This document shows positions 187-63,900 of a stretch of 64,000 nucleotides of DNA, in pieces. Below the pieces are notes generated by a model. It made no database searches and had not been told where the DNA came from. It saw only the letters and a list, made by a program, of their open reading frames with translations. The stretch comes from Amoebophrya sp. A120 (Eukaryota; Protista; Dinoflagellata). The first letter of the stretch is position 1. Each line of letters opens with the position of its first letter. A program made the position numbers and the translations under genes. The stretch spans positions 3,745,420 to 3,809,419 of the forward strand of contig CAJINV010000008.1 of assembly GCA_905178155.1 (NCBI GenBank), written 5' to 3'.

Positions 187-3100
187 ATGTCCTCACGCCC
201 AACTTATAGGGCGCAACAAGACGAAATCGGTTCCTTGGACGACCTAGACCAGCTAGAGCGTAGCGTCGCAGCGCAGCTGAGCAACCTCGGGCTCAACGAT
301 GCCAGCGCGCTGCTCAGTGAAGCTGACAAGGCGCTGCTCAAGAGCTTGGACCACAGCGCGGAGGCTGCGGCACGAGGACCAGCACATGTTGGAGGTCCAG
401 ACGACGAACTGCACGGTTTGTTGCAAACGGACGACGCCGACCTCGCAGCCCAAGTCGCAGCGCTGAGCGACGAGGAGAACGAGCTGGAAAGGGAACTGCT
501 TGCAGAGATCAATGACGGCAAGGACGAGGTTACTGGTTGTACTGGGCGGGAGATGAACAGCACCAGTGATCATGGGCAGCCAACATCTACTTCGCTACAA
601 CAACGTGCCCCGAGCCCGACGCCGAGCGGGAGCGCCGTCGGCGAGAATATTAAGCAGAGGAACAAGCTCCGCACGACCGAGGGGGAAAAGTTTTCCCAAG
701 ATGTTCTTGCTGGTGAGAATAACAAATCAAGATCTTCTGCTACGCCGTCGAGTAAGAAAGGTGAACGACTGCTCCCGCAAGAAAGCTCCGCCGATGCGGA
801 TCACGACCAGGCTCTGCAGGAGTTACTTGCCGGTGACGACGATGACGACGCCTACGGGGAATTCAGTTTCGCAGAGGTCGAGATGCACGCGTGTTGCGAC
901 AATCTGGAAAGCTTCGACGTGCTCCATTGGTGGCTGGCAGAGCTGAGGAGGAGAAAAGATAAAGAAATAAAGCAAGGAGGAACTTCTACTACAACTAGCT
1001 TTCCTTACGCGCACCTGCTGGACCGGGAGATGCAGGCGCAGGAGATCGAACAGACTGAGCAAAAAATCGCCAGTCTCACTTTTGAGATCCAAAACGGCCT
1101 TCTGCTGAAAGACGACTACGCTGAAAAAGTGAAAAAGGCGATGCAGAAGGACGAGAAGTTGCGAGTCTGGTTTGCCGAACACAACCGAGAAACTGACGCT
1201 GCGATCTGCGCCGAGAGGATCCGGATCGCGAAAGCCGAGTTTGAAGCTGCGGAGCCCGTTGAGCTAGAGGTCCTGCAGAAATTCGAGGCGGAACTCAACC
1301 AGCGCATTCTCGGCTACAAACAGGGCGCCTTTCGCTGGGTCAAGTTTTGCAAGGCATACTGTCAACACGCAGCGCCTTCGACGTCGGTTACTGCTGGCGC
1401 TTCGACGGGGGGCGTCGTGGGGGCCACCAGTAGCAGTCGGATCAACATATCACCAGTAGTGGTGCAAGATGGGTCGTCGTGCGGTGCAAGAACACCTGCG
1501 GGAGCTGCAGCAGCAGCACCACAAGAAGCACGGGCGGTGTACATGAGACACGCAAAGTGGTTGGCGGAGCAAGTGAAAATTTTAGAGGGGTACAGAGACG
1601 AGATCGCGGTCGTTACGGCAGCAGCACAAAAGGGTGGCGCTGGCGCGATAGGTGAAATTGTCCTCGATGAACAAGCAGGCGGCGCGGAGCAGGAAAAAGA
1701 CGACGAGCCTCCCTGTTGTATAGGCCGACGGCAGCTGGAAGACATGCGGAAAAGCCTGCCGCCGACGTTCAACAAGTCTATTCTCATGTACGGGTTGAAA
1801 GGACAGCACGACCAGCATTCGCGGCGGGTGGGGCGTTCTGTTCGTGATGTGCAGGAACTGCAGGCAGAGCCTGTTCCTGCCAGTAAATCTACACGGCCAG
1901 CAACACAGCAGTCATCTTCATCTACCTCTAGCTGTAAAAGAAGTTCTTGTTCGTCTATGGAGGTGCAGCGTCGCGGCGTCGCTTTCTACTGGCGAGACAA
2001 GTTCCGAGAGCAAGAGGAGTTGTTTCGGCAACTTTCCCGAGAAGCTCTCGTTACGGCGAACACGCTCAGTGCCAATTTGCAGCAGTTGGCGAAATTTGAA
2101 TCCAGCAAGGGGGCTTTGTTGTCGGGCGGGGGTCTGACAAACAGACAGAGTGCAGCAGCTCCGGGTGGGGGCGCTGTTCTTGGTGGTCGTGTATCTTCTT
2201 CGGGAGCTGCTGGCATGCCGATTAGCGGGGCCGCTGCAACTTCTACGACAGCTTCTACTTCATCGAGCAATAATCACGTGCTTTCGCAGCAGGAAATCCT
2301 CCTCGACCAGCGGCAGAAGCTGGATCGGCTGAAGCGCGAGGCGGTGCTGTTGCACCAAAAGCGAAAGGAGTTTGCGCAGACGGCTTTGTGGTTCGAAAAA
2401 GCAGCGGAGGATGACGAGCAAGTTGTGATTGATCCAGATGATAGTGGTGCAGCTGCTGTCGTGTCAGACGAAGAAGATCATGACGACGGCGAAATTGTGC
2501 CTTCCACATCGCGACCAATTTTGATAGAAGAAGAGGCAAATGAAAAAGAAAGTTCGTCATCTGTACTAGACATCAAGAAGGCGACATCCAAGTCGAAAGA
2601 TCGACATTCTGCCGCATCACGAATGGGCCCCGTGAGCCTCTCGTCAACGTCGTCGGGAGGTGGAAATGCAACAGGACCACGTCCCCGAGAAGAGCGGAAA
2701 CCTGCATCACCGCGACAGCCACAAACACCGACAAAGATGACAGTACCGTCTTTCCTGCAAGTTTCTACCCTGGCGCACGAGAAGGAAAAAATCAACGCTG
2801 ACATCGAACCCGACCACTTGGAAATTACGCTTTCGCACGACGGTATCAAATGTAAAAATGTCTGGGTCTGGAAGCTTGTGATGCTGGGTGGCGTATCATG
2901 AACAGGCCACAAGTGCTGGCTCAGCATGAAAATAAGCTTTTGAGCTTCTAGGTGTTGCCTATTCTGCATGACAAACTACGTTTGTAAGACTAACCCGTCA
3001 AGGCCACACCGAAATTCCACCTTGCTCGCGGGCTTGGATGGTAAGGGGGTTCTGCCACACATAGCGCCCACTGGCCGTAAATGCGCGTAAGAAATCGATA

Positions 3101-5504
3101 GCGGTTCTGCGGTTGCGGTCGGGTGATAGTTAGGAACTGGATCGGGTATCCACCTAGGGGTATCGGCAGAGGCTAAATCTGTTCTAACGCCCAGGTATTG
3201 GCAGAGGCTAAATCTGTTCTAACGCCAACCCGCCAGGAGTCAAATGGTTACTACTACTACTACTACTTGCATGACAGTAAAATGGGGCTCTTGGGAAACG
3301 TGCATGACAGATTTAAGAGTCATGCCAGACTAGCACGACAGAGCTCGCATTCTTCCAGACCCAGACATTTTTACAGTTGATAGACGGCAAGTCCCGGCCG
3401 TGGTGGGACTGGGAAACGGCCTATTTCAAGCTCGACTTCGGCCTCGGCAAGGAGGACACGGACCAGCGGATTTTGAAGATGGAAGGCAAAACCAACCACT
3501 GGAAGGCCTCGTTTCCGTTCCCAGATTTCGGCCACAAAATTTCTTCATCTTCGACGGCGGCAGCTTCAACAAGTCGTGTGGGCGAAACCAAAGCATCCGC
3601 TGGTGGTGGCGCTTCGTCCTCGAGAAGTAGAGCGATGAACATCGCAAATAGTAAAAACGCGACTCTTGGTAATTCTGCGGTTCCTTCGAGTAAGTTCCAG
3701 CCAGGCGGAAGGTCCTTGACGCAGATGAAAAGTAGCGGCACAAGAACCGCAGGTCCGGCAGGTGGCGGTGCGACAACTGCTGGAACAACGACAGGAGGAA
3801 CAACAGATCAAGATCGTCCACAACATTCCCAAAACTACAGTATCCACTTGCAGCACAAGATTAAGCGCGCCCGCTTCAGCTTCGAGATCTGGCGGCCGCG
3901 GACCCTCGCCTTCGTGATGGGCCACCGCCCGATCGGCCACTGCACGAAGGGACTGAAGCTGTCCAACCTGTTGACGGAATTGGAGACACCAGTTGAGTTC
4001 TGCGTCGTGTCCGCGGAGGCAGACGATCGCACAACCAGCATGAACTTCCGCGTGCAGTTCCGCGTGCGGAGCCCGTTGCAATGCATGAAGTTGGTCGAAG
4101 AAAAAGTGGACTTCTACCACGTAGGCACCAGCTGCTCGTCCGGCGCGGCTTTGTCTTGTTCAGCAGGAGGGGGTGGGGGGAGTTCTATGTTCCACATGAA
4201 ATTGTTCCCCCCCAGTCTGAAGGAGTTCCCTCCACCCATGAACATTAGCGTCGGGGCGGTTCCCGTGGGCAGCAGGTCAAGTAGTAGCTCAATCGCAGCG
4301 ATGAAAACCGCGGCGGTGGTTGGGAACACCAGTGAAGATTTGGACGAAAGCATCGTCGTTGTCAAGGAGCGCAGGAGGACATCGAGCATTGAAAATGTTA
4401 ATATCCCAGAGGTGGACCACCAGCAGTTTGAAGATCTTCGAGGTTGTGCTGCTGGCCCTGCTGCAGCAGTTGGAACAGGTGGGGGGCCTTCATCTCGTGC
4501 TCCTACAATTTCTACAAGCGACAAAAGTTGTACTAGAACTTCTCCGCATGTAGAAGACGACGTACGGAAATCTCACCCGCAAGGAGGTGTTGGCGGTGTT
4601 GGTGCTAGTAGTGGTGTTGACGACCAGCAATCCACTGCGGCATCCAGTACATCCTCGAAAGAAATAGCGACAGCGCCAGGAGGAGAACATCTACAGCACG
4701 ATGTCGATCCAGCGAAGGAGAAAACCACAACTGGCGATCAACGCGACGTCGAAAGAACCTCTTCTACAAGTGCGGCGGATGTCATCGTAAACAAGCCCCT
4801 AGTGTACCCCTTGCCGCCGCTGCCACTGGCAAACAAAGCCGCGTTTGAGAGATTGGTAACAGAAAACGGGAATTACAGCCGTTTCTGGTCCGCACAGTGG
4901 TGCAATACGGTGGAAGGCTTGGACTTCATGATCACACTCGGCAGCAGCTCTTCCGGCGGTATTGGTAGTTCATCTTTGCCACAGCCTTTGTTGACTCAAA
5001 TCCGGAACGACAAGCCGGTGTACGAGCAGAAAAAACACAGGCTGGAGCAAGCGATTACAAACGCAGAGGTGGACTTTGACGACTACCTGTCGCAGGTAAA
5101 ACAGGACATGCAGACGGACGCGCGGCTGGCCATGTTCTACCGTGACGAAAAAAACGACGCGGTGGCCTGCAAAATCGTGGTATCTACTGCAAATATGTAC
5201 TGGAGTCTGGGAGGTTGTCTTGAAGCATGCATCGAGATTGGTGTCGCACATCACAATCACTACAAACGGAACTCGCCGTGCCAGATATGCCTTGCGCAGT
5301 CACTCGCACCGTAATTTTTTTTGCATAAATTACGTGCGGCGCTGCGTTTTGGAAATTTTGATTTTCCAAGAACTTTACATGAGCATGACAAATGACAGCT
5401 GCTGTAATAGGCTCCTCCAGGCCCAGATCGATGTTTGCAGTTGATAAGTGTTTGACCGCCACAAATGTCTCAAGCAGGCGCTTGCAAATGCGGAAGAGGA
5501 GTAG
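187..5504 (+). CDS. CC2D1/Lgd-like coiled-coil and C2-domain protein (3 exons: ~187-2843, 3388-5179, 5451-5504)
   Basis: ORFs 22-2901 and 3377-5314 join in frame once the 2844-3382 element plus one TSD is removed. The C2-like segment 'KINADIEPDHLEITL...IKRARFSFEIWRPR...LKLSNLLTELE...FRVQFRVRSPL' and the helical C-terminus 'DDYLSQVKQDMQTDARLAMFYRDEKND-AVACKIVFDRHKCLKQAL' resemble CC2D1A/Lgd (recognised by eye). ATG at 187 is assumed to be the start. Confidence 0.65.
2844..3382. mobile_element. TIR introner (family A, subfamily 1) carrying a nested insertion
   Basis: TIR TATCAAATGTAAAAATGTCTGGGTCTGGAAG / CTTCCAGACCCAGACATTTTTACAGTTGATA; TSD GACGG at 2839-2843 and 3383-3387; homologous to the reverse complement of 11675-11930. 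Confidence 0.92.
2984..3266 (+). mobile_element. ~283-bp retroposon-like insertion (SINE or 5'-truncated LINE) with (TAC)6 tail
   Basis: Absent from the paralogous introner 11675-11930 (539 vs 256 bp); ends in (TAC)6 at 3249-3266; contains a 35-bp tandem duplication at 3159-3226. Confidence 0.6.
5181..5446. mobile_element. Degenerate TIR introner
   Basis: Left TATCTACTGCAAATATG...CTGGGAGG vs right reverse complement TATCAACTGCAAACATCG...CTGGAGG; flanks CGTGG/AGTGT; removing 271 nt gives the plausible C-terminus KIV(F/V)DRHKCLKQALANAEEE*. Confidence 0.7.
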
Positions 5505-6438
5505 TAGCGAGGAGAAGTTAAGACTGAGCTGAATCGGAGGCAGACATAGAAGATTTCGCCAAAGTATTCACGAGGCTACGCAGCTAGAAGAGCTAGGCTT
5601 CGCTGTGACATTTGAAGTCCGCGACCGCAAAAACAGACTGTAGGACACTTTCCATGTCTAAAGACGACTCTGTACTGTATGTCAGTAAGTACTCATACAT
5701 AATTTCCCGCCGTGAATCAAAGAACTAGAGAAGCACAAGAAGCGACACAATTGATTGACATCATCCCAGATGTTAGAGACGACAGATATGAAGATAAACA
5801 AAGTTTTTTATCGCGATCAAAATAGTGATCACAGCCGTGCGTGGGAACGGAGATGAGCTACTACTTCAGTGTAGTACTTCATCTTCAGATTTTGGGATCA
5901 GGGACGACGTAGTGACCCGTTGTTCTTACAAAGACAATGCAGCAAGACCTTTATCGTATGTCGTTGTCGGTCGTCACCTCTGGTTCTCTGGTGCGCAATA
6001 ATAACGTAATATGAGGATTATCGTGGGCCGGGGCGAAGCGGACGCCATCGGGATTGGGGTGTGGACAGCTAATTCATTGATCGTGAGGATCTGCTGTAGC
6101 TTTCCGTACTAGAATAGATTGATTACTCGTCGTTTGAGTTTAGCTCTTAGTCTTAGTCGTACACGCAAACGCAATCCAAGTCTTCGTATCGCAGGAGGCT
6201 GGTGCATTCAAATTTTGACTCCATAGGTGACTTCCTTACGCCGGTGGCAGGCTCTTGTGTCCTCAGGTGTTTCCTTGCTACTTTTCCGGATCGAGCCTAT
6301 TGTTTTTCGAAAAAAAGGAGAAATCAAGATCATCATCATCAAGATATAACTGATTCCAAAATGAAAACGAAAGCCGGCGACGTCGAGTAGAACAAGAACG
6401 GCCGCCGGGACGAGCTGCTAGCTCCACGACCTGCAGCA

Positions 6439-7629
6439 ATGTCGGATGTTGGACATCAAACTACGTCTAAAACTGGCGCAGGTGCATTCTTGCAGCCCAC
6501 AGCACTGCAAGTAGAAGTCGCAGGAGGGGAGAAACATGCAGCTGCTCGTCGCGGCCCCTTTTTGTCGCCGGCGACACCTGCTGTATCTTGTTCGCCACCA
6601 TCTTCGCAACTACCGGCGCGTCGGAAGAGATTACTGATTTTCACCTGGGAACAGAGCTTGCACCACGCTCCAGAAGACTTCTTCTGGACCTTCGTGCCGC
6701 AGTATCCAAGAAAAAAACATTGTAGGTGTAACTTTTTTGGAGGAACAGCATTACAAATCTGTCTGGCATGGCAGCAGAAACCTGTCATGCGCAGATAGTA
6801 CGTGAAAACTCCCTTTAATGGACCCTGCAATGCATGCCAGGCATGACAGACGCAATCATCTTGCATGTTGCGCATCACAAATTTACACTAACAGCGTTTT
6901 TTTCTTGCATACGCAGTACACAAAGGACGAAGCGTTGTCAGTGCACCGGATTCACCACGTGCTCGCCCGCCCGCTGTTGATGCCCCGAGAGTTTCGTCTA
7001 CGAAGACCAACTATCAAAAGCAAAAATGTCTGGGTCTGGAAGAGTCATGCTGTTTTTGCATGACGCAGAAGGTCTGGCATGGAAGCTCTAGCGTCACAGG
7101 TAATATCGAGAAGCAAGCTTCCGCAATGCCGAATCCGCATGACAAATTCCCCATTTTGGTGACAGAAAGTGGGGAGCTTTTGCTACCTATGCATGAGAGA
7201 TCTTTCTGTGTTCTGAAATGCGCATCACAAGTTTGTATTCTTCCAGACCGGGCATTTTTGCATTTGATACCAACCGAAGATGAACACAGCACCATCGTCG
7301 CCATGCGGAAAGTGTATACGCGCGCGGTGCAAGCGAAGATGCATTTGGAAGACCTTGCGCAAGAAGAAGCATCGGGATCAAGTGGCCGTTGTACTAGCGC
7401 AACAGACACCCCAGCCGTTCCTGGTTCTGGACGTCAAGATCGTCCTAGAAGTTTTTATCTCCCTGGCTGTCTCCGGTGCGCAGAGCCAACCGAGGGAATT
7501 TGCGAGACGTGCAAAAAGCCGAGCCGTCCGGTGTGCTACGAGTGTCAGAAGGAATGCAGAAGTTGCGGGGAAGTTGAGAAGCTAGAGGACGGGAGGTTCA
7601 AAAAATGCGGTGCGAAAGATGATCGCTGA
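6439..7629 (+). CDS. ~237-aa protein with C-terminal Cys-rich (zinc-finger-like) region; 3 exons (6439-6702, 6917-7011, 7275-7629)
   Basis: Three ORF pieces in different frames join as FVPQ|YTKDEA...RRPT|EDEH after removing two element+TSD units; CxxC repeats CLRC/CETC/CYEC/CRSC. Confidence 0.7.
6703..6911. mobile_element. TIR introner
   Basis: TATCCAAGAAAAAAACATTGTAGGTGTAA / TTACACTAACAGCGTTTTTTTCTTGCATA; TSD CGCAG at 6698-6702 and 6912-6916. Confidence 0.9.
7012..7269. mobile_element. TIR introner (family A, subfamily 2)
   Basis: TIR TATCAAAAGCAAAAATGTCTGGGTCTGGAAGA; TSD CCAAC at 7007-7011 and 7270-7274; near full-length similarity to 61385-61637. Confidence 0.92.
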
Positions 7630-9593
7630 ACAAATTACTACACAAGCAATTTCCACCCTCTAGTGCGCACACAACGTCGTGGAGGTAGAACGAGAAGTCT
7701 TGAGCTAGAACTTGATAAAAAGAGGAAGGCCTCCACTTGAGTATATCTTCGTGCTGCTGCTGTTGCATCACCATGCCCACGATGGAAATTGTGATCCCCT
7801 TCTATGCTGTTGCTGCTCTAACAAGCACGCAGACACATGCCTTATAATGGCATGTAATGAAATATTAATCTCGTCGTACTGAACAACGTCACATCTGTCA
7901 TCTTTTTATCGATGAGCCGTGCACATATATTGGACGACGTCTGCGTCGAGAGGGAATGAAAAAAAGCGCAGCGGCCGCAGATCATAATCATTCTGTCGTC
8001 CGTGTCGTGATTGTTTCACCTCAAAGGACGTGGAAACGATGTTCCTGTATTTTCGCATGCACGCGCTGTTTATTTGAACGGACGAAACGGATCTCTACGA
8101 GTGCGGAGCTAGCTGTATTTACAAGCGCGTCGGTTTTTTTTATTGCGATTATTATCCAACAGAAACAAAGTCAAAGTCAAACTGCTTGCTTTTGTCACCT
8201 TGTTCCGACTTTTAGTTTTGCAGACAAAAATCCAGTGGACTGACGAGTGCGATTATTGACGCGATGTGTTGTGGACAAGCATCAGATGGTTGAAGTATGA
8301 ACTTGAGGAGTTTTGCTGCGTGCTTGTGCTTCGAGTTTCATTATCTGAGAAGTTTTTTTCTGCTCATTTTCTGATGTGGTATATCCGCTGTTGGAACTTC
8401 TACACATAAAAATAAACCGATTATTCGTAAGCAGCGCAACGGCAACCTCACATTACCTTCCGAGAATGTGATGACTTTATTAATTTCACAACCACAACCA
8501 CAATCACAATGAATCACATCCATTACTTACTCCGCCCTCCATTACAGGTCTCTTCGTTTTTCTTTATCCCACCGTCGCTCAGCTTCGGCTTTTGTCTTCA
8601 CATTACGATTACACTTTGAACCAGCGCGCCCAAGCGGGCCGCGAGTTTGTGCGTACCTAATAACGTAAATACCAAGACGAGCGTTTTTTTTTCGATATTA
8701 CATGAAGATTGTAGTGCCGTGACGATCATCGGCATCGTATCGAAAATATCCAGAACAGCGCTTCTGTTACAACAGTTTTTGTTCCCGAAGATAAAATTTT
8801 CCTTTAAACGAAAGCGATCTCGATGCGTCGGTAACGTCGCTGGGTACCACTCCCTACAGCTTTTCGTAAATGCATGATAAATTAATTTGATCAACGATGA
8901 AATACATCAAAGTTCTTCGAGTTCATTGTCGATAAAAAGTAGTAAGTATATCGAGGCGTCATTTTTGCCGTAACACGGTTCCTGTACCTGTTTCAGTTTT
9001 CTTTATCTCCATACCGCATAAGTAGTAAAAAAGACCTCGGAATAAAACTAACAGTATTATGGTAGGTACATGAGGTGTGCCTGTGCGCCAGAACGAGTAA
9101 TCATGACGGAGAGTAGTAGCAATGGAAAATAAAGAAGTACATCAAGAAGTTCTCAATAAAAGTAGTAGTTGTAATCTTGAAGTTGTGTGTCTACCTTTTT
9201 CATACACATTTTGTCTTTGATAGTAGCAGTAATAAAAACAAGCATGACCACTTACATCTCATGAAGGTCACGCCTTATCAGAAGAATTTCTCAAAAATCC
9301 CAACAACAAAAAAATTATAGCAAGCAAGTTTTCAACATTCGGTATTTCGTTGCCACTCGCACTCTCTGGTATCAAGAAAATCCAAGAACATCCCTGTTGA
9401 CTTTCTAAAAGTCTAAAGAACCTCCCTATTCTCACCCTTCAAAATATACGACACCTGAAATCGGCATCCACCGTAGTTCTCCGCGCGCTGTCCCCAATTT
9501 TTACCTACGACTCTCTCGAAAAGAGTCCGTGACGACGCTCACCTGCGAAGAACCCGGATCAAGTTCGGCAAGAAGAAGGAACTACTGCAAGAA

Positions 9594-12500
9594 ATGGCTA
9601 TCACTGTGGAGCAATCTACTTCCAACAAGTCCGACGCCGGTGGCGTCGACAAGATGAAGCAGTTGCGCGGAGGAGCTGCAGCTCCTGCGGGTGCTGGAGC
9701 GGGTGGTACTGGGATTGAAAATACCCTGATCAACAAAACTTCTAATCCCACCACCTCCACCCGAGGCAACGCGGCCACCACGACGACCAGCAACATGATG
9801 GGTCCGGCGGAGCTGAGCAGCAACAAACTGAAGAAGTTTAAGCTGTACATCCCCTCGGTCTCGTTCATCGAACTCTGCTCCTGCTTCTTCATCGTCGGCT
9901 TGTATGGGAAGTTGCTCGTGTACTTTTTCCACGAGAAGGACGGCGTCGCGAGCTCCAGCCAGTGGCATTTGTTCCTGCACAACTCCCTAGCGGTGTTGGT
10001 GTACGGCTGCTTCTGGCGGTTTCTGCAACAGCGCTGGATGAAGTGGAAGGCGTATTGCGCGAAAAATCCGGAGACCGCCACGGTGCTCAAGTTTCTGCTC
10101 GGCGGGAACGTGGATCTGTTCTCGGGGATCAGTCGCAATGGCCGGAGTTCGACGTCGTCCCGTGGGACGATCATGTCGCAGGAGCAGGAAGGGCTGGAGG
10201 CGAACGACTCCGGGCGTATTTCTGCCGAAATGGGCAGTTCTGGCACGACCATGAAGGGCAAGCAGATGAATGACGAGAAGGAGATTAGTGGACTACTACA
10301 CCAACAAGCCAACATCCCGACCAACACCAATCTGAAGCTGCAGCATGACAAAAAACAGGGCTTTGCCTACGACCTGTCGTACGACGACACCGGCGCGGAC
10401 AGCACCGGGACGGGCGAAGACTCCAGCCCCTGCGCCGGCAATTCCCCCCCGTGGGACAAGAAGACCGGGTTTTTTGGCACCAAAACTGGCGGTGAAAATA
10501 ACCGCACGACCGAGGATTCGTCTCCGGATTTGAAGAAGAGGACCAACAGTGCTGACGGTAGTTGCAAGGATAATTCATCTTCCAAGATCACGAACAGCAC
10601 GACGACGAACAAGCCGGTTTTTCCGCTCGCGAAGCCTAGTTCGGACGACATCAAGCGTTTGGTGAATTTGTCAGAGATGACGTACGACACGGTGGTGGAC
10701 CCGGCCAGCGAAGGGATCCGCGTCGGGTGGGGGCACGCGCTGATCGTGTGTCTCTCCTACTGGTACCGGGCCTATTTCATGCACTGCACCGTGGAGCGCA
10801 TCTGCACCACGCACCTCTTTCGCGACAACGACCTGATCCACGCCTTCGTGTCCCCGCTGGCCGGCCGCTTGGTCGCGATGGTGGGCGAGCAGGTGTTCAT
10901 GTGGAACGCGGTCATCCCCTGCGTCTGCTGGGGCCCCTACAAACGGTTCAAGTACTACATGCTGTGCGGGCTGGTCGCGTTCGCGGAGCAGATCTCCAAC
11001 ATTGGAGTCATCAAGCGCCACTACGGCTTTTTCTTGCTCGAAAACTCCACCTGGACCATCGTCTTCACGGTCATCTTCTGGCAGATCTTCAAGAAGCGCT
11101 TCTTCATCTGCCGCTTGTCCTCGGCCCCGAAAGAGGTCGCGATCGCGGAGGAAGAGGAAGAAAAGTTGATGAAGAACCACGGTTATCCTGTGCAAAAGTA
11201 TCGTACTCGTAGTAATCGCGATCATGCATGACAAATATCCCTTTTATAGGTAAATCAGCATTACAAATTCCATTTCTCTTCTTGAAAAAACTTGTGATGC
11301 AATTTATACTAGTACGATACTTTTGCAATGCATAACGGTGCGTTCGAAGAAGATTTGACGTCGGCCGGGGACCTGCGCAAGCGTGGTTCCTCCGCTGCTG
11401 GTGGTATTTCCTCGTCCACGACCTCGTCCTCGTCTAAGCTGCCCAAGGCGGGGGCCTATGAACTGCAAAAGTATCGTACTCGTATAAATGCATTAATACA
11501 ACTTTTTTCAGCATGGCAAATAAAATTTGTAATGCTGATTTGCCTTGGCAAAGAAATTTGTAATGCAAGACCTGCATTTATACGAGTACGATACTTTTGC
11601 ACAGCATAGGGCAATGCTGCAGGCGAAGAAACTGGCCGAGAACCTCCGCACCAAGATCGTGAACTTCCGCAAGCTATCAAATGCAAAAATGTCTGGGTCT
11701 GGAAGAATGCATGTTTGTAATGCTTGTCTGGCATGAGTCTTAAATCTGTCATGCACGTTACCCAAGAGCCCCGCTTTTCTGTCATGCAGAGACGCAGTTT
11801 GTCATGCAGAACAGGCAACACCTAGGTAGAAGCTCCGAGACTTGTCATGCGGAGCCAGCACTTGTGGCCTCTTCATGATACGCCGCCCAGCATGACAAGT
11901 TTCCAGACCCAGACATACTTGCAATGCATACAAGCCGCGCACGCTGCGCATGCTGGTCTTGACCCGGTTCGTCGCGTTGCTGGCGGTGGGTCTGTTCATC
12001 GGGTACGAGCTGTACTTCGACCTGCCCATGTACTACTCGCTCTGGGACTCCACCTACCTGAAGCAGGACTACGACCTGCAGTTCTACCCGCAGGGGCTGA
12101 AGCACTCGCTGCAGTGCCACACCATGGTGGAGAACACCTCCAACGAGCACTGGCGCCCGGTGATGCTCTGGCAGGCGGCCAACTACACCATGGTTCCGCT
12201 GGCCATGGTGCTGCTGTCCTCCCTGACCTACGACCGCAAGCGGGTCTTCATGGGCCTGGACCGCCGCGTCTTTTTCGACGTGTCGGAGAAGATAGGAAAG
12301 TGCACAATTCCCCTGCTTCCCTCTTCTTTGTAAATGTTGTACTTATCTATGCACCACGGAAAAAATAGAAGTGTAACTGTTCGTGTAGAAGTGTCGCGGC
12401 CAAGATCAAGAATTCGGGTTATGTTGCAGGAGCTGGATTTTAGAACTAGAAGTGTTATGTCTATCATCCAGGCCGCCGCTGCTGGACCAGGTCATGTAAG

Positions 12501-12667
12501 CTGTGCCTAGAGGGAAAGGATGGCTTCGGCTTTTAGTTTTATTTGCAGGACAAATGAGGGGGAGGCGGAGTAGTTGTGCACTCTCATAAAGGGCGGGTTG
12601 GATCTCGGTCATCACGTCTAAGGAAAATGCCGCCGGGAACGGAGGATACCTGCCGCGGGGGCAGTAA
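9594..12667 (+). CDS. Multi-pass membrane protein of an uncharacterised family; exons ~9594-11183, 11340-11456, 11614-11674, 11936-12292 and probably 12594-12667
   Basis: Frames join after removing element+5 nt (NHG|AFEE, AGA|MLQA, FRK|PRTL). Hydrophobic segments carry the motifs 'YRA..VERIC..SP..GR.VA..GE', 'AEQ.S...LENSTW', 'DLPMY' and 'W..VMLW'. The last exon is uncertain; an unspliced stop lies at 12333. Confidence 0.7.
11184..11334. mobile_element. TIR introner (family B)
   Basis: TIR TATCCTGTGCAAAAGTATCGTACTCGTA / TACTAGTACGATACTTTTGCAATGCATA; TSD ACGGT/ACGGT. Confidence 0.92.
11457..11608. mobile_element. TIR introner (family B, opposite orientation to 11184-11334)
   Basis: ~36-bp TIR TATGAACTGCAAAAGTATCGTACTCGTATAAATGCA; TSD GGGCC/GGGCA. 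Confidence 0.9.
11675..11930. mobile_element. TIR introner (family A subfamily 1, reverse orientation)
   Basis: TIR as in 2844-3382; TSD CAAGC/CAAGC; the internal sequence is the reverse complement of 2844-3382 minus its insert. Confidence 0.92.
12293..12588. mobile_element. Degenerate TIR introner
   Basis: Left TAGGAAAGTGCACAATTCCCCTGCTTCCCTC vs right reverse complement TATGAGAGTGCACAACTACTCCGCCTCCCCCTC; flanks GAAGA/AAGGG. Confidence 0.65.
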
Positions 12668-20730: not shown

Positions 20731-23700
20731 ATGGACAGTGCTCCGGCGAGAGCAACGGCCCCCGGCACAAACGACGTCGATATACTGGCGCGGCATCTCA
20801 TTAGTAGCGACAAGATTCGACTGCTCCGGGGGATGCTGATTCTGCCGCACTCGTTATGCCATTGACACCATGAGAAAAAGCAGAAGCTTGTCATGCGTTC
20901 TGGGGTTTTTATGGAAGTTTATATCTTGCCCCCACAGCAAAATGCTTTTTCTCATTTTGACAATTGCATAGCCAAGCAGAACCAACGTCGGCCGATATGG
21001 GAGATTTCTGATAAAAGTGCTGACCGAAACAGCATCTGGCGAAACCGCTACCGCACTGCAGCTTATGGGAGAAAAAAGCGAGCAGGCGATAGGGCGGATT
21101 TTTGAAAAGATCGAGGCGAGGGTCATGCTGGCGTATTTCCGGTGCCAGGGTGACCATGTTCGGTGGACCGCGGGCCAGTGCCATTCCCGGGGGCGGGGAA
21201 TATTATCCCACATACAGTTTGATGGGACGCCGCTGTGCTTGTTAACCTCCGGCGACTATGTGACCGCGGACTGTTTTGGGGTTAGTCAGTGCATCGCGAT
21301 GCCGCGCGCGGATTCTTCGCACAGTGCTTACCGACTAGCCTCCCCCGATGGGTTTGACCAAGTACGCTATTGGGTCGGGGGGCAGGTGGTGCAAATGCTG
21401 GAGGGCCACACGGATTCGATGGTCCACCAAGTCCTCCGCCAGCGCACGATCTACGTCCGAACTTTATTCGATCCGCACTCTCCGGATGGTCTCCGGGGAT
21501 TCACGCTAAGCCGTATGCACATGACAAATGCCAGTTTTGAGCTGCAGTGCGGAAACTATCTCAAGAAGCCACACCAGGAACTTGTCATGCTCAGAACTTT
21601 GTCATGCAGCGCTCAGAGATTTGTCATGCAGCGGCGCAATTTGTCATGCAGTTTTCATACATGTTGCACCTTCTTGAGATAGTGACTAAACTGACTTCCC
21701 AAAGCTGGCTTATTTTTATTTTGCAGTGCGGACTACGGGGCAGACGGCGGCAGTGCAGGGGTATTACGAAAGTACTGCGCATTGCAGCACGAGATGGGTC
21801 TACTGGTGGGTGGGCCGACCACTTTACTACAGTCGTTGCTGGACTTGGTCTTCGTCGATACCTGTTATCAGAAAAAAAACGTCTCTGCCCTTCTTGAAAG
21901 TGTTTTTATGCATGACATTTCGCAAGTATAATCACGATGAAAAGGCGCTTTCAAGAAGGGCAAATACTTTTTTTTTGCATATTGCCGTGATCCACACGAT
22001 GCACTGCGCGATGGAGGACGGCCTGCGGTCTTTGGAACTTTTTGCAGATGAAAAGCATGACGACGACATCAAGCGGATCAGCAACGCCATGCGGAAGAGC
22101 GGCAAAGCTCTGCGAGAACACGTCCACGACTTCGCTCTCCAGCATTACATCTGCAAACCGCTCAAGGACCCGGAGCTGTACGCAGAAACTTTGAAGTTTG
22201 TCTGTGGCGCAGGGCAGGAGGGGCTGCGGGATCGACTTATCCGATTGGGTCTGCGGCACGAAGGGCACGCCCTGGCAGGAAATTTGCGATTTTGCGAAGA
22301 TACAGTTGGGGAGGTTGCGGACTGTTTGTTGGAGATCCGCTACAAGCAGATGCAATTCGGGCGGGTGGGTAACAGCCTACTCCCAGCAAGGGCTGCGGCT
22401 TTGGCAGATATAGTCGGGATTCACCATCTTGCCGAAATGGTGATGAAAAAGGGCCGCCGCAGGTTCTTCATCAAGCAAGCATTTGATACGACCACCGTGC
22501 GCTACCGAAAGGAATACCCGAAGGCCATCTGGAGCATGATAACCCTCCTGCCTGTCTTCGAACACGCAGAGAAGACCCTCCTGCGCGACGACTCGCTGCA
22601 GGGCATTTCAGCGGTTCAAAAAGCAATGGAGGAAGAGCTTGCAGCATGGCGGAGCACGGATTTTCGAAAGTATTGGGGCTATTCCAGTATTCCGGCAGAG
22701 GAGATCGACGCACAGCTCCACAAAGTTTATCTCGCAATCGATATCGCTGCAGCTTCGGCGTACGCCTTGGCCTTTCGGAGATTGGAGCACGCCCCGTACA
22801 GCCACTTCCTCGGGGCCGGTCTCACGCTGGAGAAGATTCTGGACCGCGTCCGCAACACACCAGTCGAGAAGGCGGACTTCGGCTTCACCCGGAAGTTGCA
22901 GCAGCTGAGCCAGATGGCGCCCAAGGTGTTGGAGAGTCACAAGTCCAGTCTGGCGGACGTCTGTGGTTTGCTTCTCACCGTTCCGCAGTCGGTGTTCATA
23001 CGGGAAAAGCTGCACAAACATAGCCACCGACACAACTTATCCTCAAAATCCTTCTCCTCCGTAAACGTCCTGCAGTGGAATTCCACCTTCGTACGAAGTG
23101 TCAACCTCCAGCCACCTACAGCAAGTCGAGATTTCCGCATGAGAGTATTTTCTCATGCGGAAATCGCAAAGAAAGGTGCATGGCTGGAGGATTTGTTTTT
23201 CATACCAAGTGGAGCAGAGTATGTGTCTTGGGTCACAGAACCGCGCCTCCCCTACCACCGGCCAGGTCCTGTCCTGGGACGAGCTTGCCCTGCAGTCCAA
23301 CGCGCACAAGATTACTCGCCCGTCCATGTTCGTCGCCGAAAATGCAAAAAAGAATATCGGGGGGCAACAGGCCCAAAGCAAGTACTTCGCGTCGATGATG
23401 GAGACCTTCGCTACGAAGAACATGGCAGGGGAGACGGAGTACCTCACCAGCCACGTGGCCAAACGCCGGGCGGAAAAAGTAGAGGGGGAATTGGAAAAAC
23501 AGGCACGGGAGTTACAGCGGTACGCGGACCGGGAGAGCAAGATACAGCGCAGGAAGACTTTTGTCACCGGGATCAACACAGACAACCTGGACGACGAAAT
23601 TACAGATGGCAGTTGGCTCGAAGCTTGGCATGACCTCCCCGTCGACTGCTCGGGTGAGCTTCGACAGATGTGCCAGCAGGACTACGACAAGGATCTCGCC

Positions 23701-27808: not shown

Positions 27809-28299
27809 ATGTCACCGAAAAGTAAAAAAATGAAGACCAATTCTTCTGCTGCTAGTAGCGGCAGCAATGGCGCTGGTGCGGGGGCTGCCAGTAGCGGCAG
27901 CAACGTCCCGGCACAGAAGCAGGGGGCGAAGTTTATGAATGTGGAACTGTGTCAATCTTAGTATGCGGCGCAGGTAGTTTCCCCGGCAGTTCTGCCGAGT
28001 TTCGACGTCGCTTGCAAAGCCAGACGGCTTTGCTGGAAATGCGTGTAGTTTTGCCGTCGGGGCACAGCCCCGACGCCAAAACGTTCGTCTTCACTGTGTC
28101 CCAGAGCATTTCGCACTCAGCATGACACACGCACACATTCATAAACTCCAAAAACAAATCTTCGAGCAAAAGCAGTCTGGTGCTGAATGAGACGCAGATG
28201 CCGATGGCAATGGAGGTACAGCAGTACACTTCTTCTTCTGGCAAACAACAGCTTCGTCTTCTCATGCAGATCACCGCCCATGAAGAGAGCAAGACTTGA
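27809..28299 (+). CDS. Small hypothetical protein (~90 aa, 2 exons) inside the large element
   Basis: MSPKSKKMKTNSS...QGAK|FKNKSSSKSSLVLNETQMPMAMEVQQY...HEESKT* after removing 27934-28148. Confidence 0.4.
27934..28143. mobile_element. TIR introner
   Basis: Left TATGAATGTGGAACTGTGTCAATCTTAGT vs right reverse complement TATGAATGTGTGCGTGTGTCATGCTGAGT; flanks AAGTT/AACTC. Confidence 0.7.
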
Positions 28300-57920: not shown

Positions 57921-60900
57921 ATGAAAATTCGAATTACCACAGCGGCTGCGACTTCGGCAGGTGGATGCGATTTATTCGATCTGCATCAGGAGCAGAACTT
58001 GAGTACCATCACCCAGGGAAATCTCGTCAACATCTCAGAATTTAGCACCACAGTAGCGCCTGGAGGTGCTGGTGACGAGATTGTAGGCCTCACAACGCCC
58101 CCTTCAAACAGCAAAAACAACCAGCAGGATTATGAACAGTCGCAGTGCGAAGGGGCAGTCGACAGTTGTTGCTTGTGGTCCACCAACACCACCCGTGTAT
58201 CTCAGCAACACCAGGCGCCGGCCAACTTCTGCCTGCAAACGCCCACGAATTTTGTGCGGCGGCTGCGCTCGCCGACGTTCGACCCGAAGGTGGCTTTCCA
58301 CGGCGTTGGAATTGTGAAATCAGTTTCCACGACTCCTGTTGTACATGACGAACGCGAGGACGACAACGGCCCCTGTATCTCCGATGTAGATGACGTTCAT
58401 CTTCTTGATGCTTCCGGCAAGTTAAACGCGGACGATCGATTGAAGACAAAGACACCCAGCCCGAAAGAGACGCAGCATCAGAAGAACTTGTCGGGGTATA
58501 ATGATATTCGTGGCCGCTGCTCTTGGGGTCCTCGTGCTTTTGGAGATGGAACGAAAGACCACGACGATTCCTCCAATCCGTACGAGGCCATCCAGTACGA
58601 TAGAGATTTTCTGGACAACGACAGCAACACAGACGACCCTGGTGGCACGACCAGCGTTTCTTCACCTTGCCGGCCGCATGAAATAAATGTTATCGCCGAC
58701 GATCAAGATGAGCGAAACGGTAACAGCACTGCGAAAAATAAGTGCTCTAGTACTTCTAGCGTGGTAGGAGTTCCCTCCCCACCCAGCGCGGAGCTGCTGC
58801 AGCGCACCAAGTCTTTCAAAGCGGGCTATCGACACTTCCACTCCATGAACAGTAAGGCGCGAGAGACGAACTCCGTGGAAGAGGTGTACGAGCTATTGCA
58901 GATGATTGGCGAAGGGTCTTCCGGTTCTGTCTGGACGGCGCGGCGGCGGATTCTGATCGGCACGGACCGAGAGAGGTTGTCGAAGCAAATTTTTGCGGTG
59001 AAGGAAATCCGGAAAAAACAGTTGTCCTGTACGAGGCTCGGGGGCAGCGGAGGCTGTGCAAGTACTGCAGCACCGGCAGTGCAAGGTGCAGGTTTATTGC
59101 CGAAAAATGCAGCACTAAGCGGTTCTTCGGCTGCGTGCAGTAGTGCTCGCCCCGTAGCAGAAGTGCATCCCGGCCAAGAATGGCAAATGAACCGTTGTAC
59201 CCGTGGTGGAGGAGCAGGAGCGTCACCGTTCAAGCGACTGCAGGAGCAAGCGAGCGCAACATCATGCGGCGCTCCTCCCGCATTCCCCAGCAGAACCTCC
59301 TCGCCTGGCCAGCATGAGAATCCTGCAGCCTTGGACTTCGGATTCGGAAGCTGCACGACGCGGGAGCAAAATCCAAACTGCACAAGCGCCGGGCTACTAG
59401 GGGGCTCTGTAGCTGCTGCTCAAGAGCACGTGGTCAATGACTCGCCTTCTCTTGGCGGAGGTTTAGGTTTTCTGTCCCTCCCGATCCCCTCCCTCGCCAT
59501 CAATCAGAACTTCGAGGATACCTCCGACTGCTTTTCCCCGTGCGGGTCCAGAGACAGCAGCCCGCTGCAGGGGTATAATTTCGTGCCCCAAGTAGGAGAA
59601 CCGGCGGTTTACAGTTCGGGGACGATGATGCAGCATGGAAATTATGATGAAAATAGTGCCACTTCGTGTTCTTACAACACCTACCGCCATGGTGGAGATG
59701 AAAACGGTCGTGATGTGCACGACTTCGAAGATAGCGATATCGCCCATAGCTGCCATAACGCCGACAGTAGTTCATCTTACATCAGCCTCCACAATCTGAA
59801 TCCGACATCAAAAAATCCGCGCAGTACCACGACGGACATTCTCGATGAAGAGGAGCGGTTACTGATGGAGGAAACGTGCGCGTTCCGGGAGAAGCGGCAA
59901 GTGTTGGAAGATATCCCAGAGAAAAAAGCGAGCGGGGCGCATTTGTAAAATCGTAATGCAAAAATATTATATGTCTTGCATGGCCTAAAAAACGTGAACG
60001 CCGTTCGATACAGCCTGCCCATGCTGACCTAGACCTACATATCAACATGTTTGCATACACAAATGCGCCTACCTTCTAGCTTTGTTCTGTGGGATAGAAG
60101 AGCACCTCTGGGCGGTGAAGTATAACTGGGAACAGGACAGCACGACCGGGGAGCGGAATCACGGACCCTGGAACCACCTGCAGCTGGATCGGGAAAACTA
60201 CAATGTCAAAGCCGGAATCATCGGACTGAATGGTCAACAGTCCTTGAGTGGAGGGAACGGAACCACAAGCCGGACCTCGTCGAGGATCAGCTCCAGGACG
60301 AGCTGCGAGAAGATGAACCAGCAGAGCGTGGAGGAGGGTGGCTCACCACCAGACCTTGATGTACAAGAACCGACTGCTGCTTCAGGAGCAGACGGGGTTC
60401 TTGCGCCGTATAATGAAATTGCAGCTGCGGAGGCTGCTCGCGTTCAACAGCAGCCTCCTACTCCGATTTCTACCGGCTCTTTTTCTACGGGTAAAAATTC
60501 TGGCGCTCTTATTCCGCAAATATCGTGTATGACGGGGCAATCCAGAAGGAGCTGCACAACATCGTCGCGCGTTCTCCCAGAAGAGGACGGTGGAGTGTTG
60601 CACTCCGATACTATGAACAACCAATCACGACCGGTTCCAGGACCACCTTCAACAGCGGCAGCTGGTGCAACATCGGCGCTGCAGCAAATGAAACCAGTGC
60701 GGTTCACGAACGTTTACGCTGCAGCGGAGATGAGAGAGCATCAGGATCAAGAAATAGCACCAAAAAACGACACTGACGCGGCTCCTGGTGCAGGAGTCGT
60801 GTGCTCTCAGTCACCAACGCGCGCCGCCAGCTTCAGTACCGAGATAGCGGAAACGGAGTATCAATTTTTGGACGACATGAACCACGAGCCGCACCAGGTG

Positions 60901-63900
60901 CGCGACAATCTCCCTTCGCAGCGTGAATGTCGTTCCAACTCGGCGGAGAGCGCAATGACAACAATTTCCTTTAGCGGAAGTGGGGCGGTCAAACTGTCGG
61001 TGGCTCGATCTCCCGATGTTAAACAGGAAGTACATGACGAAATAAGTTCTTCCGCTTCTATTTTCTCAAAAGGAATATCACTATCAGCGAAGGCAGAACT
61101 ACTCGGAGCAGCATGTTCGTCTAGCGGCGGGAGGATACCTTTAACCTCGGAAGAACATCATGATCAAGACGAATCCGAAGATGTGGCAGCACAACTACCA
61201 GGAGCTGAAGATATAATTAACCACGGCCACCAGGAGCGGATGCTGCGCACAGACAAGCCGTTGCTCTCCTTCCAAGAAGAAACGGCGAAGCTGAACCTGA
61301 AACAGCGGCACTCGCTGCAAACCGACCTCTTCGCCCGTACGGAGTCTGACAAAAACATGCTGACAGTGACCACAAGCCAACCCTTATCAAGTGTAAAAGT
61401 GTCTGGGTCTGGAAGAGTCATGCTGTTTTTGCATGACACAGAAGGTCTGGCATGGAAGCTCTAGCATTACAGGTTTCGAGAACCTTCCGCATTGCCGAAT
61501 CCGCATGACAAGTCCCCTACTTTGCTGACAAAAAGTTGTGGGAGCTTTTGCTACGTATGCATGAGAGACTTTTCCGTGTTCTGAAATACGCATTACAAGT
61601 TGCATTCTTCCAGACCCAGACATTTTTACACTTGATAACCCTTGCACCGGATCAATTCGAACGCGTCCTCGCAGAGCGGCGGAAGAACCTCAAATTGTGG
61701 CACCAGACACAACTACATCCACAACTACACGTCGTCGGGCAGCACGAACAGGGGAAACAAAACCACAACCTCGAATTCTTACGGCCGCTCATCGTACAAC
61801 TTTTCGACGGCGGAAATGATGATGGGGACGAACAAGAACTGCAGGCCGCGTGTTTCGCTGAACAACCCGATGTTCTCGGGAACAGCAGGAGCACCAAGAG
61901 GACCACCTTCACAAGCGCCGCCGGCTCGGAGTCGGTTGAACTCGGTGGAGCAGATCCCTTCGATGTACCGGCCGCGCCGGGCCTCCGAGCTGCTGCTCAA
62001 CCGGAGGCCGGCAAATTTGATGGACGAGCAAACACCGGTGGTGCGACAATTGGTCGTGGATCGAAATGTGCGGAGAAGTACGTGCCTTTCCCGGTCGAGT
62101 AGCTCCGGTGAGGGTCGTATGCAGGGAAAAACCGCCATGATCCCCATCCATTTTTTGTTTGATAAAACATAAACACTTGATGAGGTACTTACTTAAATGG
62201 GTGCGCCTCATTGATTCTTCATCCTCGGGCTGGGGGATAGAGTAGCACGCAGCTGTCTGCCAAATAACGGCACACTGTCAACATCGTCATCACTGGACTT
62301 TACGTTTACGCATGAATTTGGCATGAAAAATTCGATGGGGATCATGGGTCTTTTTGTGTGGATAGGTCGGCGATCGGTCACTGCGGGAGGAGGTGCTGGA
62401 ACGAACCGCAACGCGACAGGCACGGCAGCTGCGGGGGTCGTGGCCGCGGACCAGTCCGCGCGGGGACTGCATCATGTGAGCTGCTGTTTTCCTTCGATCC
62501 CGTGTGCCATAGACGAGAAGCAGGTGGCCGATATGATGTTGTGTAAAAAGAGATCTAGTGCTCACTGTGGTGGACGAACAAGCGGTTTTGCGTCCGCGCG
62601 GAGTAGCTACCGGATGGACCAGGTGAGTGAACACTCTGTCGAACAGAGCGGGACTGCTCATTGCGGTAGTGGTGCGAAGGAGCACGGAGAAGTTGGAATC
62701 GATCCCGGGCGCGGGCCGCACCACTACACGAACAACACTGCAGCTGGCTCCACCTTCGTAGTGCCAACGCAGCGTTTTGGAGCTGAACGGGATAATTGCG
62801 TTCCACTACATGACGAGTCCACGCCCACTTTTGACGGCACGGCTCCTGATCATGGTGGGGAAAACCTAATGAAAAACACTGGAAATTTATTGCAGAATAA
62901 TACAGAGGGTCTTGATGTTGCGGTTGCGCGGGTAAGTGGAACATTATCTGCGGACCACGCCACGACCGAGCAACAAGGTAAAGGTTCTTTGCAACAAACA
63001 TTGAGCGGCCCTCCAATTGGTGTAGCAGCAGGAGCAATTTTTCGGGACACGGACTCCGCACCAACAGCAGTCGACTCCAACGATAATTTTTCCGACGCGG
63101 AGCAGGCCCCCGGCACGACTTCTGTTCCTCCATCCAGCCAAACCGCTCTCCTGAAGCAGCTTTTTGCGGATGAAGAGGATCCGGCTGGGTTTGGATACAC
63201 GCCCAACAATGTTGGTGCCAATCAAAACAACCGCGGAAATAATTTTAAGAACTGCTACGGTTTCGCGCCACCCAACGAACAGGAGGATTACCTGCAGGCG
63301 AGGTTTCGGGAAGAGATTACCATGATGAAGAGCTTGGACCACCCGAGTATTTGCAAACTTTACGATGTTGTGGAGGACGACTTTTCGATCTTCCTCGTCA
63401 TGGAGTATTGCGACGGGGGGGAACTAAACGACAAAATTGACGACGACAGCCTATTACCGGAACATGAGTCCTTGCAGATTGTCAAGCAGGTGGCCCAAGG
63501 TACGGAACGGAAAATTTTGAAAGAGTTACTTATGTCATAGGGTGTTCTTCATTTCAGAAATGAGAATGAGAATCTTTATCGGATATGCGGCCTACGCCTA
63601 AGTGAACCCAAAAACAACATATTGCCATTGCGTCGCATGATTTTTGCATTTCTTTGGTTTTGCATTTGCACGGCAACTACAATACGAGAAAGAATCAGAA
63701 TCATAAAATCCAAACCCATACACCGCAGGTCTTCGCTACTGCCACGAGCAGAATATTGTCCATCGCGACATCAAGCCGGAGAATATCCTGTTCAAAAGCA
63801 GCAAAAGCGCTTCCAACTACCAGCAGAAGAGTTATGCGGGCGACCACGAGAGTTCTTACGTAACCCGCGAAGATCGAATGCTGCACAACAACATCTCCAA

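What the first reader, a model, noticed from the sequence alone, without database searches (positions are those of the whole stretch)
2844..62364. TAT...ATA hairpin introners removed by an 'element + 5 nt' rule, mostly without GT-AG
Seen in sequence: about 18 insertions from at least 10 unrelated sequence families interrupt coding exons. They share TAT(C/G)...(C/G)ATA ends and 25-40 bp TIRs. Young copies have perfect 5-bp TSDs (GACGG, CGCAG, CCAAC, ACGGT, CAAGC, GAAGA, ACCCT, GGTCG). Element lengths fall in all three classes mod 3, yet deleting element+5 nt reconnects the flanking ORFs each time I could test it, even where the TSD has decayed. At 6703, 7012, 11184, 11457, 11675, 59912 and 61385 no exact element+5 junction reads GT-AG, and at 6702-6916 the available GT-AG (215 nt) would frameshift. 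Established: inverted-repeat introners and non-canonical introns were reported in Amoebophrya (Farhat et al. 2021, BMC Biology). Inference: excision is positioned by a ruler measured from the base of the hairpin rather than by U1/U2 signals, which would imply an undescribed splicing or excision machinery.
Basis: partly seen in the sequence, partly recalled or inferred. Interest (0 to 1): 0.85.

Follow-up and report, generated by a model that had tools for sequence, protein, structure and literature searches.

The report
Hairpin transposon introns without GT-AG
Genes of a marine Amoebophrya-type parasite are interrupted by small, already described jumping elements that are missing from transcript assemblies together with exactly five extra bases and without the usual GT-AG signals; the cuts likely fall one base before and four bases after each element, which would give the first splice rule for these unexplained introns.

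Summary
The window has 17 TAT…ATA inverted-repeat elements, 8 with perfect 5-bp target duplications (TSDs). In 347 elements (window plus a closely related assembly), 270 have a perfect 5-bp TSD and none a 6- or 7-bp one. Transcript-type contigs lack element+5 nt at 7 of 7 bridged sites (five read singly, two by sum), none at GT-AG; DNA-type contigs keep the elements. These match the Amoebophrya A120 introner elements of Farhat et al. 2021, so the elements are known. What I did not find in print: three decayed-TSD junctions plus one conserved lysine leave one common register, 1 nt before TAT and 4 nt after ATA (N-TAT…ATA-NNNN). The paper calls the position variable or unknown. Elements insert in both orientations and show no GT or AG enrichment. 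The register rests on four sites, and all transcript evidence is assembled cDNA. That RNA pairing rather than end sequence sets the cut is not shown (no G·U bias; terminal-base mutants occur). The likely machinery is a U1-less spliceosome (the 5′ end keeps +2U/+3A); a Euglena-like non-spliceosomal pathway is the main rival.

The parts
2844..3382 (+). TAT..ATA element, 539 nt, perfect 5-bp TSD, largest family
   Evidence: ORF 933 to 1529 aa on removal with 5181; not bridged by any listed transcript contig
5181..5446 (+). element, 266 nt, TSD 3/5; predicted intron 5180-5450
   Evidence: X4 record 3 skips 271 nt; allows registers 4+1 to 1+4, excludes 5+0 and 0+5
6703..6911 (+). element, 209 nt, perfect TSD
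   Evidence: X4 record 4: 477 nt missing for 6703 and 7012 together = 209+258+10, middle piece 94 nt
7012..7269 (+). element, 258 nt, perfect TSD, largest family
   Evidence: as 6703; no GT/GC-AG within -6..+10 nt
11184..11334 (+). element, 151 nt, perfect TSD
   Evidence: X5 record 8 skips 156 nt; X4 record 5 agrees by sum
11457..11608 (+). element, 152 nt, TSD 4/5
   Evidence: X5 record 8 skips 157 nt; excludes 0+5
11675..11930 (+). element, 256 nt, perfect TSD, largest family
   Evidence: X5 record 8 skips 261 nt
12293..12588 (+). element with mutated start (TAG), 296 nt, TSD 2/5; predicted intron 12292-12592
   Evidence: X5 skips 301 nt and the X4 right piece also starts at 12592; allows only 2+3 or 1+4; 1-nt microhomology at the junction, 3 nt at element+4
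20855..20970 (+). element, 116 nt, TSD 1/5
21557..21681 (+). element, 125 nt, 12-bp TIR, inside a probable GT-AG intron 21547-21726; exception to the rule
21866..21981 (+). element, 116 nt, TSD 0/5; all six registers give different junctions
27934..28143 (+). element, 210 nt, TSD 3/5
   Evidence: no cover
29561..29887 (+). element, 327 nt, TSD 2/5
   Evidence: no cover
29954..30074 (+). element, 121 nt, TSD 1/5
   Evidence: no cover
59912..60096 (+). element, 185 nt, perfect TSD, in a protein kinase gene
61385..61637 (+). element, 253 nt, perfect TSD, largest family
62118..62364 (+). element, 247 nt, perfect TSD; the only window element where one +5 register (4+1) reads GT-AG

Best explanation
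These are short inverted-repeat elements with strict 5-bp target duplications, absent from transcript assemblies together with exactly 5 flanking bases, and likely non-autonomous DNA transposons spliced from pre-mRNA at a fixed register 1 nt before TAT and 4 nt after ATA, probably by a modified spliceosome that lacks U1. Insertion duplicates 5 bp. Removing element+5 restores the original coding sequence whatever the target sequence or element orientation (shown at 7 sites; statistical elsewhere). The mRNA keeps TSD positions 1-4 from the left copy and position 5 from the right copy (inferred from four sites, assuming one register). The inner part of the inverted repeats is predicted to pair and hold the two ends together, standing in for U1-based definition (inferred). 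The intron would begin N-U-A-U, keeping the +2U/+3A of the GTA donors of this lineage while freeing +1, and end a counted 4 nt past AUA with no AG (inferred). Odds: RNA-level removal of element+5 about 0.9; 1+4 register about 0.7; spliceosomal catalysis about 0.5.
For: 5-bp TSD perfect in 270 of 347 elements; 6 or 7 bp in 0. Element+5 missing at 7 of 7 bridged sites: in X4, 5181 singly and six by sums; in X5, a PolyA metatranscriptome of another study with a diverged strain, four singly. X7 contigs run unbroken through 5181 and 12293. Codon model prefers +5 over +3/+4 in 211 of 277 elements, in all three length classes (66/88, 86/116, 59/73). Register: 5181, 11457 and 12293 exclude 0+5; 12293 leaves 2+3 or 1+4. 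At L020:1778-2081 the registers give His, Asn or Lys; Lys stands in all 4 close homologs aligned (A120, A25, an MMETSP transcript, a Logan protein), which needs 1+4 or 0+5. No splice-signal selection: GT-AG in any +5 register in 10 of 179 sense vs 6 antisense; at 1+4, G at +1 in 56 of 179 and AG at the end in 14 of 179. Both orientations occur (37:45 in the 82-member family). All 6 GT-AG introns of the L020 gene start GTA. Mutants of 5' T1/A2 number 2, against 9 at the mirror 3' positions, among 18 elements (a hint only). A120 has U2, U4, U5, U6 and nearly all spliceosomal proteins but no detected U1 (PMC7789003).
Against: Only four sites fix the register, and position 4 rests on one residue in a related assembly; a Lys-to-Asn change there, or registers that vary by element (12293 at 2+3 would read GA-AG), cannot be excluded. 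A second homology test (L041) was uninformative. Codon scores over 46 decayed elements did not separate registers. All transcript evidence is assembled cDNA; X4 is RNA only by the tool's guess; no raw reads covered the genes (X10: 98 reads, 97 only partly on the stretch). 10 of 17 window elements have no RNA test. No G·U excess in sense stems (104 vs 96), so selection on RNA pairing is not shown. A frame-preserving GT-AG lies within -8..+10 nt at 60 of 179 elements (45 antisense). The codon model was partly trained on +5-joined flanks. Free +1, -2 and -1 bases go beyond the Fritillaria precedent, which keeps preferred ends (PMC11282704). No lariat or snRNA test was possible.
Confidence: 0.55

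Rival explanations
1. Same fixed register, but a separate non-spliceosomal pathway (a structure- or sequence-guided nuclease plus ligase, or a circularising reaction as proposed for Euglena nonconventional introns) removes the elements.
For: Both intron ends are free in sequence; either orientation works; long terminal stems are predicted on both strands for 16 of 16 window elements folded. Euglena has a spacer-measured code N3CDG..CHGN5-6|R, shown by knock-in, with unknown machinery (PMC12501133). GT-AG introns coexist in the same genes, as in Euglena.
Against: The 1+4 register puts U at +2 and A at +3, as in the GTA donors; weak 5' asymmetry of terminal mutants (2 vs 9); no candidate enzyme was looked for or found.
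Confidence: 0.3
2. Element+5 is removed, but the cut register varies within the TSD and follows weak local donor/acceptor matches (GT, GC, GA, AG), as Farhat et al. describe ('variable').
For: Farhat Fig. 3 and S23 legends give variable positions of 1-5 nt. 12293 could read GA-AG at 2+3. L020:3001 reads GT-AG at 1+4 and 62118 at 4+1.
Against: GT/GC/GA-AG is available in any register at only 21 of 179 elements (15 antisense). A constant total of 5 with decayed TSDs needs coupled cuts. One register fits all four informative sites. Slidable repeats alone would make mapped positions look variable (as described for Euglena).
Confidence: 0.08
3. The junctions are reverse-transcriptase template switches across a hairpin flanked by direct repeats (falsitrons), so the apparent rule is an artefact of cDNA.
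For: Hairpin plus direct repeat is a setting where such artefacts are expected (recalled; PMC8240250 abstract, shows cDNA-only exitrons exist); all data here are cDNA assemblies.
Against: At 12293 the junction has 1 nt of microhomology while element+4 offers 3 nt, and two studies give the same right-hand start. Retained elements would bring stops or frameshifts into conserved genes such as the L020 enzyme. The listed X4 and X5 contigs of these genes are all joined.
Confidence: 0.04
4. The elements are excised from DNA in part of the life cycle (like ciliate IESs, recalled) and never need splicing.
For: Precise loss of element plus one TSD copy is what perfect DNA excision would give; the X7 joint table was cut (433 rows not shown), so low-level joined DNA is not excluded.
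Against: X7 contigs at even depth (about 44) hold 5181 and 12293 unbroken and carry flank-element joins at the others. An asymmetric, transcription-oriented 1+4 register is not expected of a DNA reaction on symmetric ends.
Confidence: 0.03

Closest known systems
Amoebophrya A120 introner elements (Farhat et al. 2021, PMC7789003)
   Same: TAT-started inverted repeats followed by about 7 variable bases and an A run, direct repeats at the borders (a 5-bp example in the Fig. S19 legend), non-GT-AG removal in RNA-seq, many families, hairpin model. Almost certainly the same elements.
   Different: The paper gives 3-5 nt repeats and calls the splice position variable or unknown; here the TSD is strictly 5 bp, removal is element+5, and one 1+4 register fits. 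Its figures are images that I could not see and may show more.
Euglena nonconventional introns (Nomura et al. 2025, PMC12501133)
   Same: No GT-AG, paired ends, cuts at fixed spacers from a terminal motif, a longer spacer on the 3' side, coexistence with GT-AG introns, slidable repeats, unknown machinery.
   Different: Motif TAT/ATA instead of CDG/CHG; spacers 1 and 4 instead of 3 and 5-6; no purine rule at the exon start (102 of 179); young, high-copy elements with intact TSDs.
Fritillaria borealis MITE-derived non-canonical introns (as reviewed in PMC11282704; bioRxiv 2025.08.15.670264)
   Same: TIR/TSD transposon origin, non-GT-AG ends; precedent for removal by a U2-type spliceosome.
   Different: There the ends have preferred dinucleotides (AG-AC, AG-AT) drawn from the TIR; here both terminal dinucleotides come from the target sequence and are free.
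IS3EU/GingerRoot DNA transposons (PMC10045372)
   Same: TA..TA termini.
   Different: Their TSDs are usually 6 bp; here 5 bp. No transposase seen.

Membership tests
Amoebophrya A120 introner elements | inverted repeats at both intron ends | tested here: met
   12-39 nt ungapped; folds
Amoebophrya A120 introner elements | IR starts TAT, about 7 variable bases, then 3 or more A | tested here: met
   end profiles; consensus
Amoebophrya A120 introner elements | 3-5 nt direct repeat over the borders | tested here: met
   5 bp perfect in 270 of 347
Amoebophrya A120 introner elements | removed from transcripts at non-GT-AG sites | tested here: met
   7 of 7 bridged sites, (cDNA contigs)
Amoebophrya A120 introner elements | repeated families | tested here: met
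   39 groups among 347, the largest 161
Amoebophrya A120 introner elements | host is A120 | tested here: inconclusive
   the window's source is not given; its TIR family occurs in contigs whose L020 exons match an A120 protein at 99-100% where the alignment stays within exons
MITE / non-autonomous TIR DNA transposon | short, TIRs, constant TSD, high copy, both orientations | tested here: met
   median 262 nt; deep pile-up of X7 contigs on elements
MITE / non-autonomous TIR DNA transposon | cognate autonomous transposase | not testable with these tools
   no genome held; TIR pattern absent from viral contigs
IS3EU/GingerRoot | TA..TA termini | tested here: met
IS3EU/GingerRoot | 6-bp TSD | tested here: not met
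   0 of 347 with a perfect 6-bp repeat
Euglena nonconventional intron | N3CDG..CHGN5-6|R signature | tested here: not met
   TAT..ATA with 1+4 spacers; purine first exon base in 102 of 179
Euglena nonconventional intron | end-to-end base pairing required | tested here: inconclusive
   predicted but no G·U bias
Euglena nonconventional intron | excised as full-length circles | not testable with these tools
   contigs only
U2-type spliceosomal intron | GT/GC donor and AG acceptor | tested here: not met
U2-type spliceosomal intron | U at +2 and A at +3 of the donor | tested here: inconclusive
   true if the register is 1+4; 6 of 6 GT-AG donors in L020 are GTA
U2-type spliceosomal intron | branch point and lariat | not testable with these tools
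   neither terminal A of ATA is invariant

The most novel reading that the evidence does not exclude
Amoebophrya of the A120 lineage carries a second splice code, N-UAU…AUA-NNNN, read at a fixed 1+4 distance from transposon inverted repeats by a dedicated machine (a re-engineered U1-less spliceosome or a new nuclease-ligase). It makes every insertion of a whole transposon group seamless in either orientation and at any target, and it arose independently of the Euglena code.
Probability: 0.45. Interest if true: 0.8.

Novelty: already known. Interest (0 to 1): 0.52.

Why it matters
The elements, their non-canonical removal and the missing U1 were published in 2021; how they are spliced is still open, and the paper leaves the border position unknown. 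A strict 5-bp TSD, an element+5 rule and a 1+4 register turn that into a testable code for about 30,000 introns (the paper's count for A120). It predicts exact junctions, says where to look for a branch or a circle, and allows direct comparison with the Euglena code. If the spliceosome does it, both terminal dinucleotides are dispensable when the ends are held together; if not, a new mRNA cut-and-join activity exists in an alveolate. I did not find the register in four full-text searches. Roy et al. 2023 and Henriet et al. 2019 were not read, and the Farhat figures were not visible.

Tried and rejected
No own genome is held and the related records have no handles, so no genome-wide or transposase search was possible. 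X10 raw reads laid almost only on element ends and were of no use. Including the DNA-type run X7 filled the joint table, so junctions were read from the piece table. The second lay (25380-33400; X1, X2, X4, X5) gave only 12 short unjoined pieces at depth 2-5 and nothing over 27934, 29561 or 29954: no test, not evidence of retention. Protein searches with two exons near the decayed elements found nothing among longer proteins. L041 homologs are too divergent at the junction. PDB searches for the CAP and L042 junction residues gave no alignment over the junction. A six-frame open-length test of +5 was nearly saturated and was replaced by a codon-score test. TSD mismatches by position (8, 7, 8, 5, 11 in 31 elements), stop-codon counts and codon scores by register (46 elements) were uninformative. 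The G·U versus A·C test was negative. The TIR pattern was not found in viral contigs. No earlier findings of this scan matched. IS3EU/GingerRoot membership was rejected on TSD length.
Full report
Observation. Two scans of the window give 17 elements of 116-539 nt with inverted ends starting TAT and ending ATA (12293 starts TAG). The stricter scan finds 20 raw pairs in the window and 0-2 in each of 20 local shuffles. Removing the elements joins open frames (933 to 1529, 576 to 763 and 682 to 1633 aa), but +2, +5 and +8 do this equally. Of the 17, only 62118 has an element+5 register that reads GT-AG. Element 21557 is an exception: +5 gives an in-frame stop, and it sits inside a probable GT-AG intron.

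What it is. Farhat et al. 2021 (PMC7789003; abstract, passages, parts 2-3 of the main text and supplement legends read; figures not visible) describe introner elements in Amoebophrya A120: inverted repeats starting TAT, direct repeats of 3-5 nt, 29,850 copies, no detected U1 snRNA, and splice positions 'variable' or 'unknown' relative to the hairpin. One gene there matches an A120 protein at 99-100% where the alignment stays within exons. The window's host is therefore A120 or a close relative (inference).

Insertion. In 347 elements (332 from those loci, 15 from the window; some false pairs included), 270 have a perfect 5-bp repeat, 43 have 4 of 5, 13 have 3 of 5 and 21 have fewer. Perfect repeats of 3, 4, 6, 7 and 8 bp number 5, 2, 0, 0 and 1. 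They form 39 groups by internal sequence but share an end consensus, and an internal 8-mer occurs in 321 of 347. Families lie in both orientations to the inferred reading direction (37:45, 8:6, 4:10 and 9:5 in the four largest). This is the anatomy of a non-autonomous TIR transposon. TA..TA ends resemble IS3EU/GingerRoot, whose TSDs are usually 6 bp (PMC10045372, passages), so membership fails on TSD length. Gozashti et al. 2025 (PMC12130899, passages) report A120 introners with TIRs and LTR-integrase-like ORFs; whether those mobilise these elements is untested.

Removal. Laid on 2500-13100, X4 (RNA by the tool's guess; no depth at 8164-9225, where X7 is even) skips 271 nt at 5181, 477 nt over 6703+7012, and 875 nt over the four elements at 11184-12588; each equals element lengths plus 5 per element. 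X5 (PolyA metatranscriptome, another study, 95-99% alike) skips 156, 157, 261 and 301 nt singly. X7 contigs hold 5181 and 12293 unbroken. In the related loci a codon model prefers +5 to +3 or +4 in 211 of 277 elements with enough flank, in all length classes (tests only the class mod 3, and the model was partly trained on +5 joins).

Register. Write u+d for bases removed before TAT and after ATA. 5181 allows 4+1 to 1+4, 11457 allows 5+0 to 1+4, and 12293 allows 2+3 or 1+4. At L020:1778 the registers give His (5+0, 4+1), Asn (3+2, 2+3) or Lys (1+4, 0+5). Lys stands in the A120 model, an MMETSP transcript, A25 and a Logan protein, the 4 closest of 32 hits; the two distant homologs aligned differ there. 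The only single register that fits all four sites is 1+4. This assumes one register and rests on one residue for position 4. A second homology test and three statistical tests were uninformative.

Signals. Of 292 elements with enough flank, 179 could be oriented. GT-AG is available in some +5 register in 10 (6 on the antisense control). At 1+4 the ends give 58 different dinucleotide pairs, G at +1 in 56 and AG in 14, in line with exon composition. Against my reading, 60 of 179 have a frame-preserving GT-AG within -8..+10 nt (45 antisense). The 1+4 intron starts N-T-A-T, and all 6 GT-AG introns of L020 start GTA. Among 18 oriented elements with a mutated terminal base (of 22 found), 5' T1 and A2 are changed in 2 and the mirror 3' bases in 9, a weak hint that the 5' end is read as a donor. 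Long stems are predicted on both strands in 16 of 16 window elements folded, but the outermost bases are open in 11675 and 12293, which are removed, and G·U does not exceed A·C in sense stems (104 vs 96 in 170 elements). A ruler is supported; that it starts at a paired hairpin base is not shown.

Mechanism and rivals. Most likely the inner inverted repeats bring the ends together and a U1-less U2-type spliceosome cuts at 1+4 (inferred, about 0.5 for the machinery). Fritillaria is the precedent for spliceosomal removal of TIR introns (PMC11282704 and bioRxiv 2025.08.15.670264, passages; Henriet 2019 not read). The main rival is a Euglena-like path: PMC12501133 (first sixth of the text and passages) shows a spacer-measured code with required pairing and unknown machinery. 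RT template switching (PMC8240250, abstract) is unlikely: the 12293 junction has 1 nt of microhomology where +4 offers 3, and retention would break conserved genes. DNA excision is unlikely but not excluded at low level. Two other Amoebophrya strains use mainly GT-AG (PMC12005148 and PMC11453091, passages), which gives natural comparison genomes.

Verdict. The feature is real and the elements are already known. The strict 5-bp TSD, the element+5 rule and the 1+4 register were not found in searches. They make an open question directly testable, but the register needs genome-wide confirmation and the machinery is unresolved. Interest 0.52.

Noticed in passing
window 24475-24564 and its copy near 26865: A 90-nt hairpin with TCT..AGA ends and no TSD inside a long reading frame; possibly an old element or a second end type. 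One short unjoined X1 piece starts at the second copy.
   Followed up: partly
window 20019/20214 and 34168: A 12-nt inverted repeat brackets about 14 kb holding two multi-intron genes without homologs found, a 2.3-kb near-identical duplication around an N gap (about 23.0-25.3 and 25.4-27.7 kb), and only decayed-TSD elements; perhaps a large cargo-carrying transposon.
   Followed up: partly
window 13260-17999: 1580-aa stop-free frame with a reverse transcriptase domain (RVT_1), followed by direct repeats; probably a non-LTR retrotransposon.
   Followed up: partly
window 52972-55881: 970-codon stop-free frame without a Pfam hit at E 0.001; looks like a second retroelement-type ORF by eye only.
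   Followed up: partly
elements in window and L001-L138: The 8-mer GCAT(G/T)ACA, either strand, occurs at 8.4 per kb inside elements and 1.0 per kb elsewhere, with no strand bias (172 vs 196); also seen by eye in probable GT-AG introns at 31-33 kb. A candidate transposase or RNA-binding site.
   Followed up: partly
window 21547-21726: Probable GT-AG intron whose two ends lie in a 10-nt direct repeat and which contains element 21557 ten bases inside.
   Followed up: no
window 39782-41818: Alpha/beta hydrolase gene (Abhydrolase_3) in a long frame with no elements found.
   Followed up: no
window 47642-49220: 48-nt inverted repeats 1.5 kb apart, 92% complementary, with ends unlike TAT..ATA.
   Followed up: no
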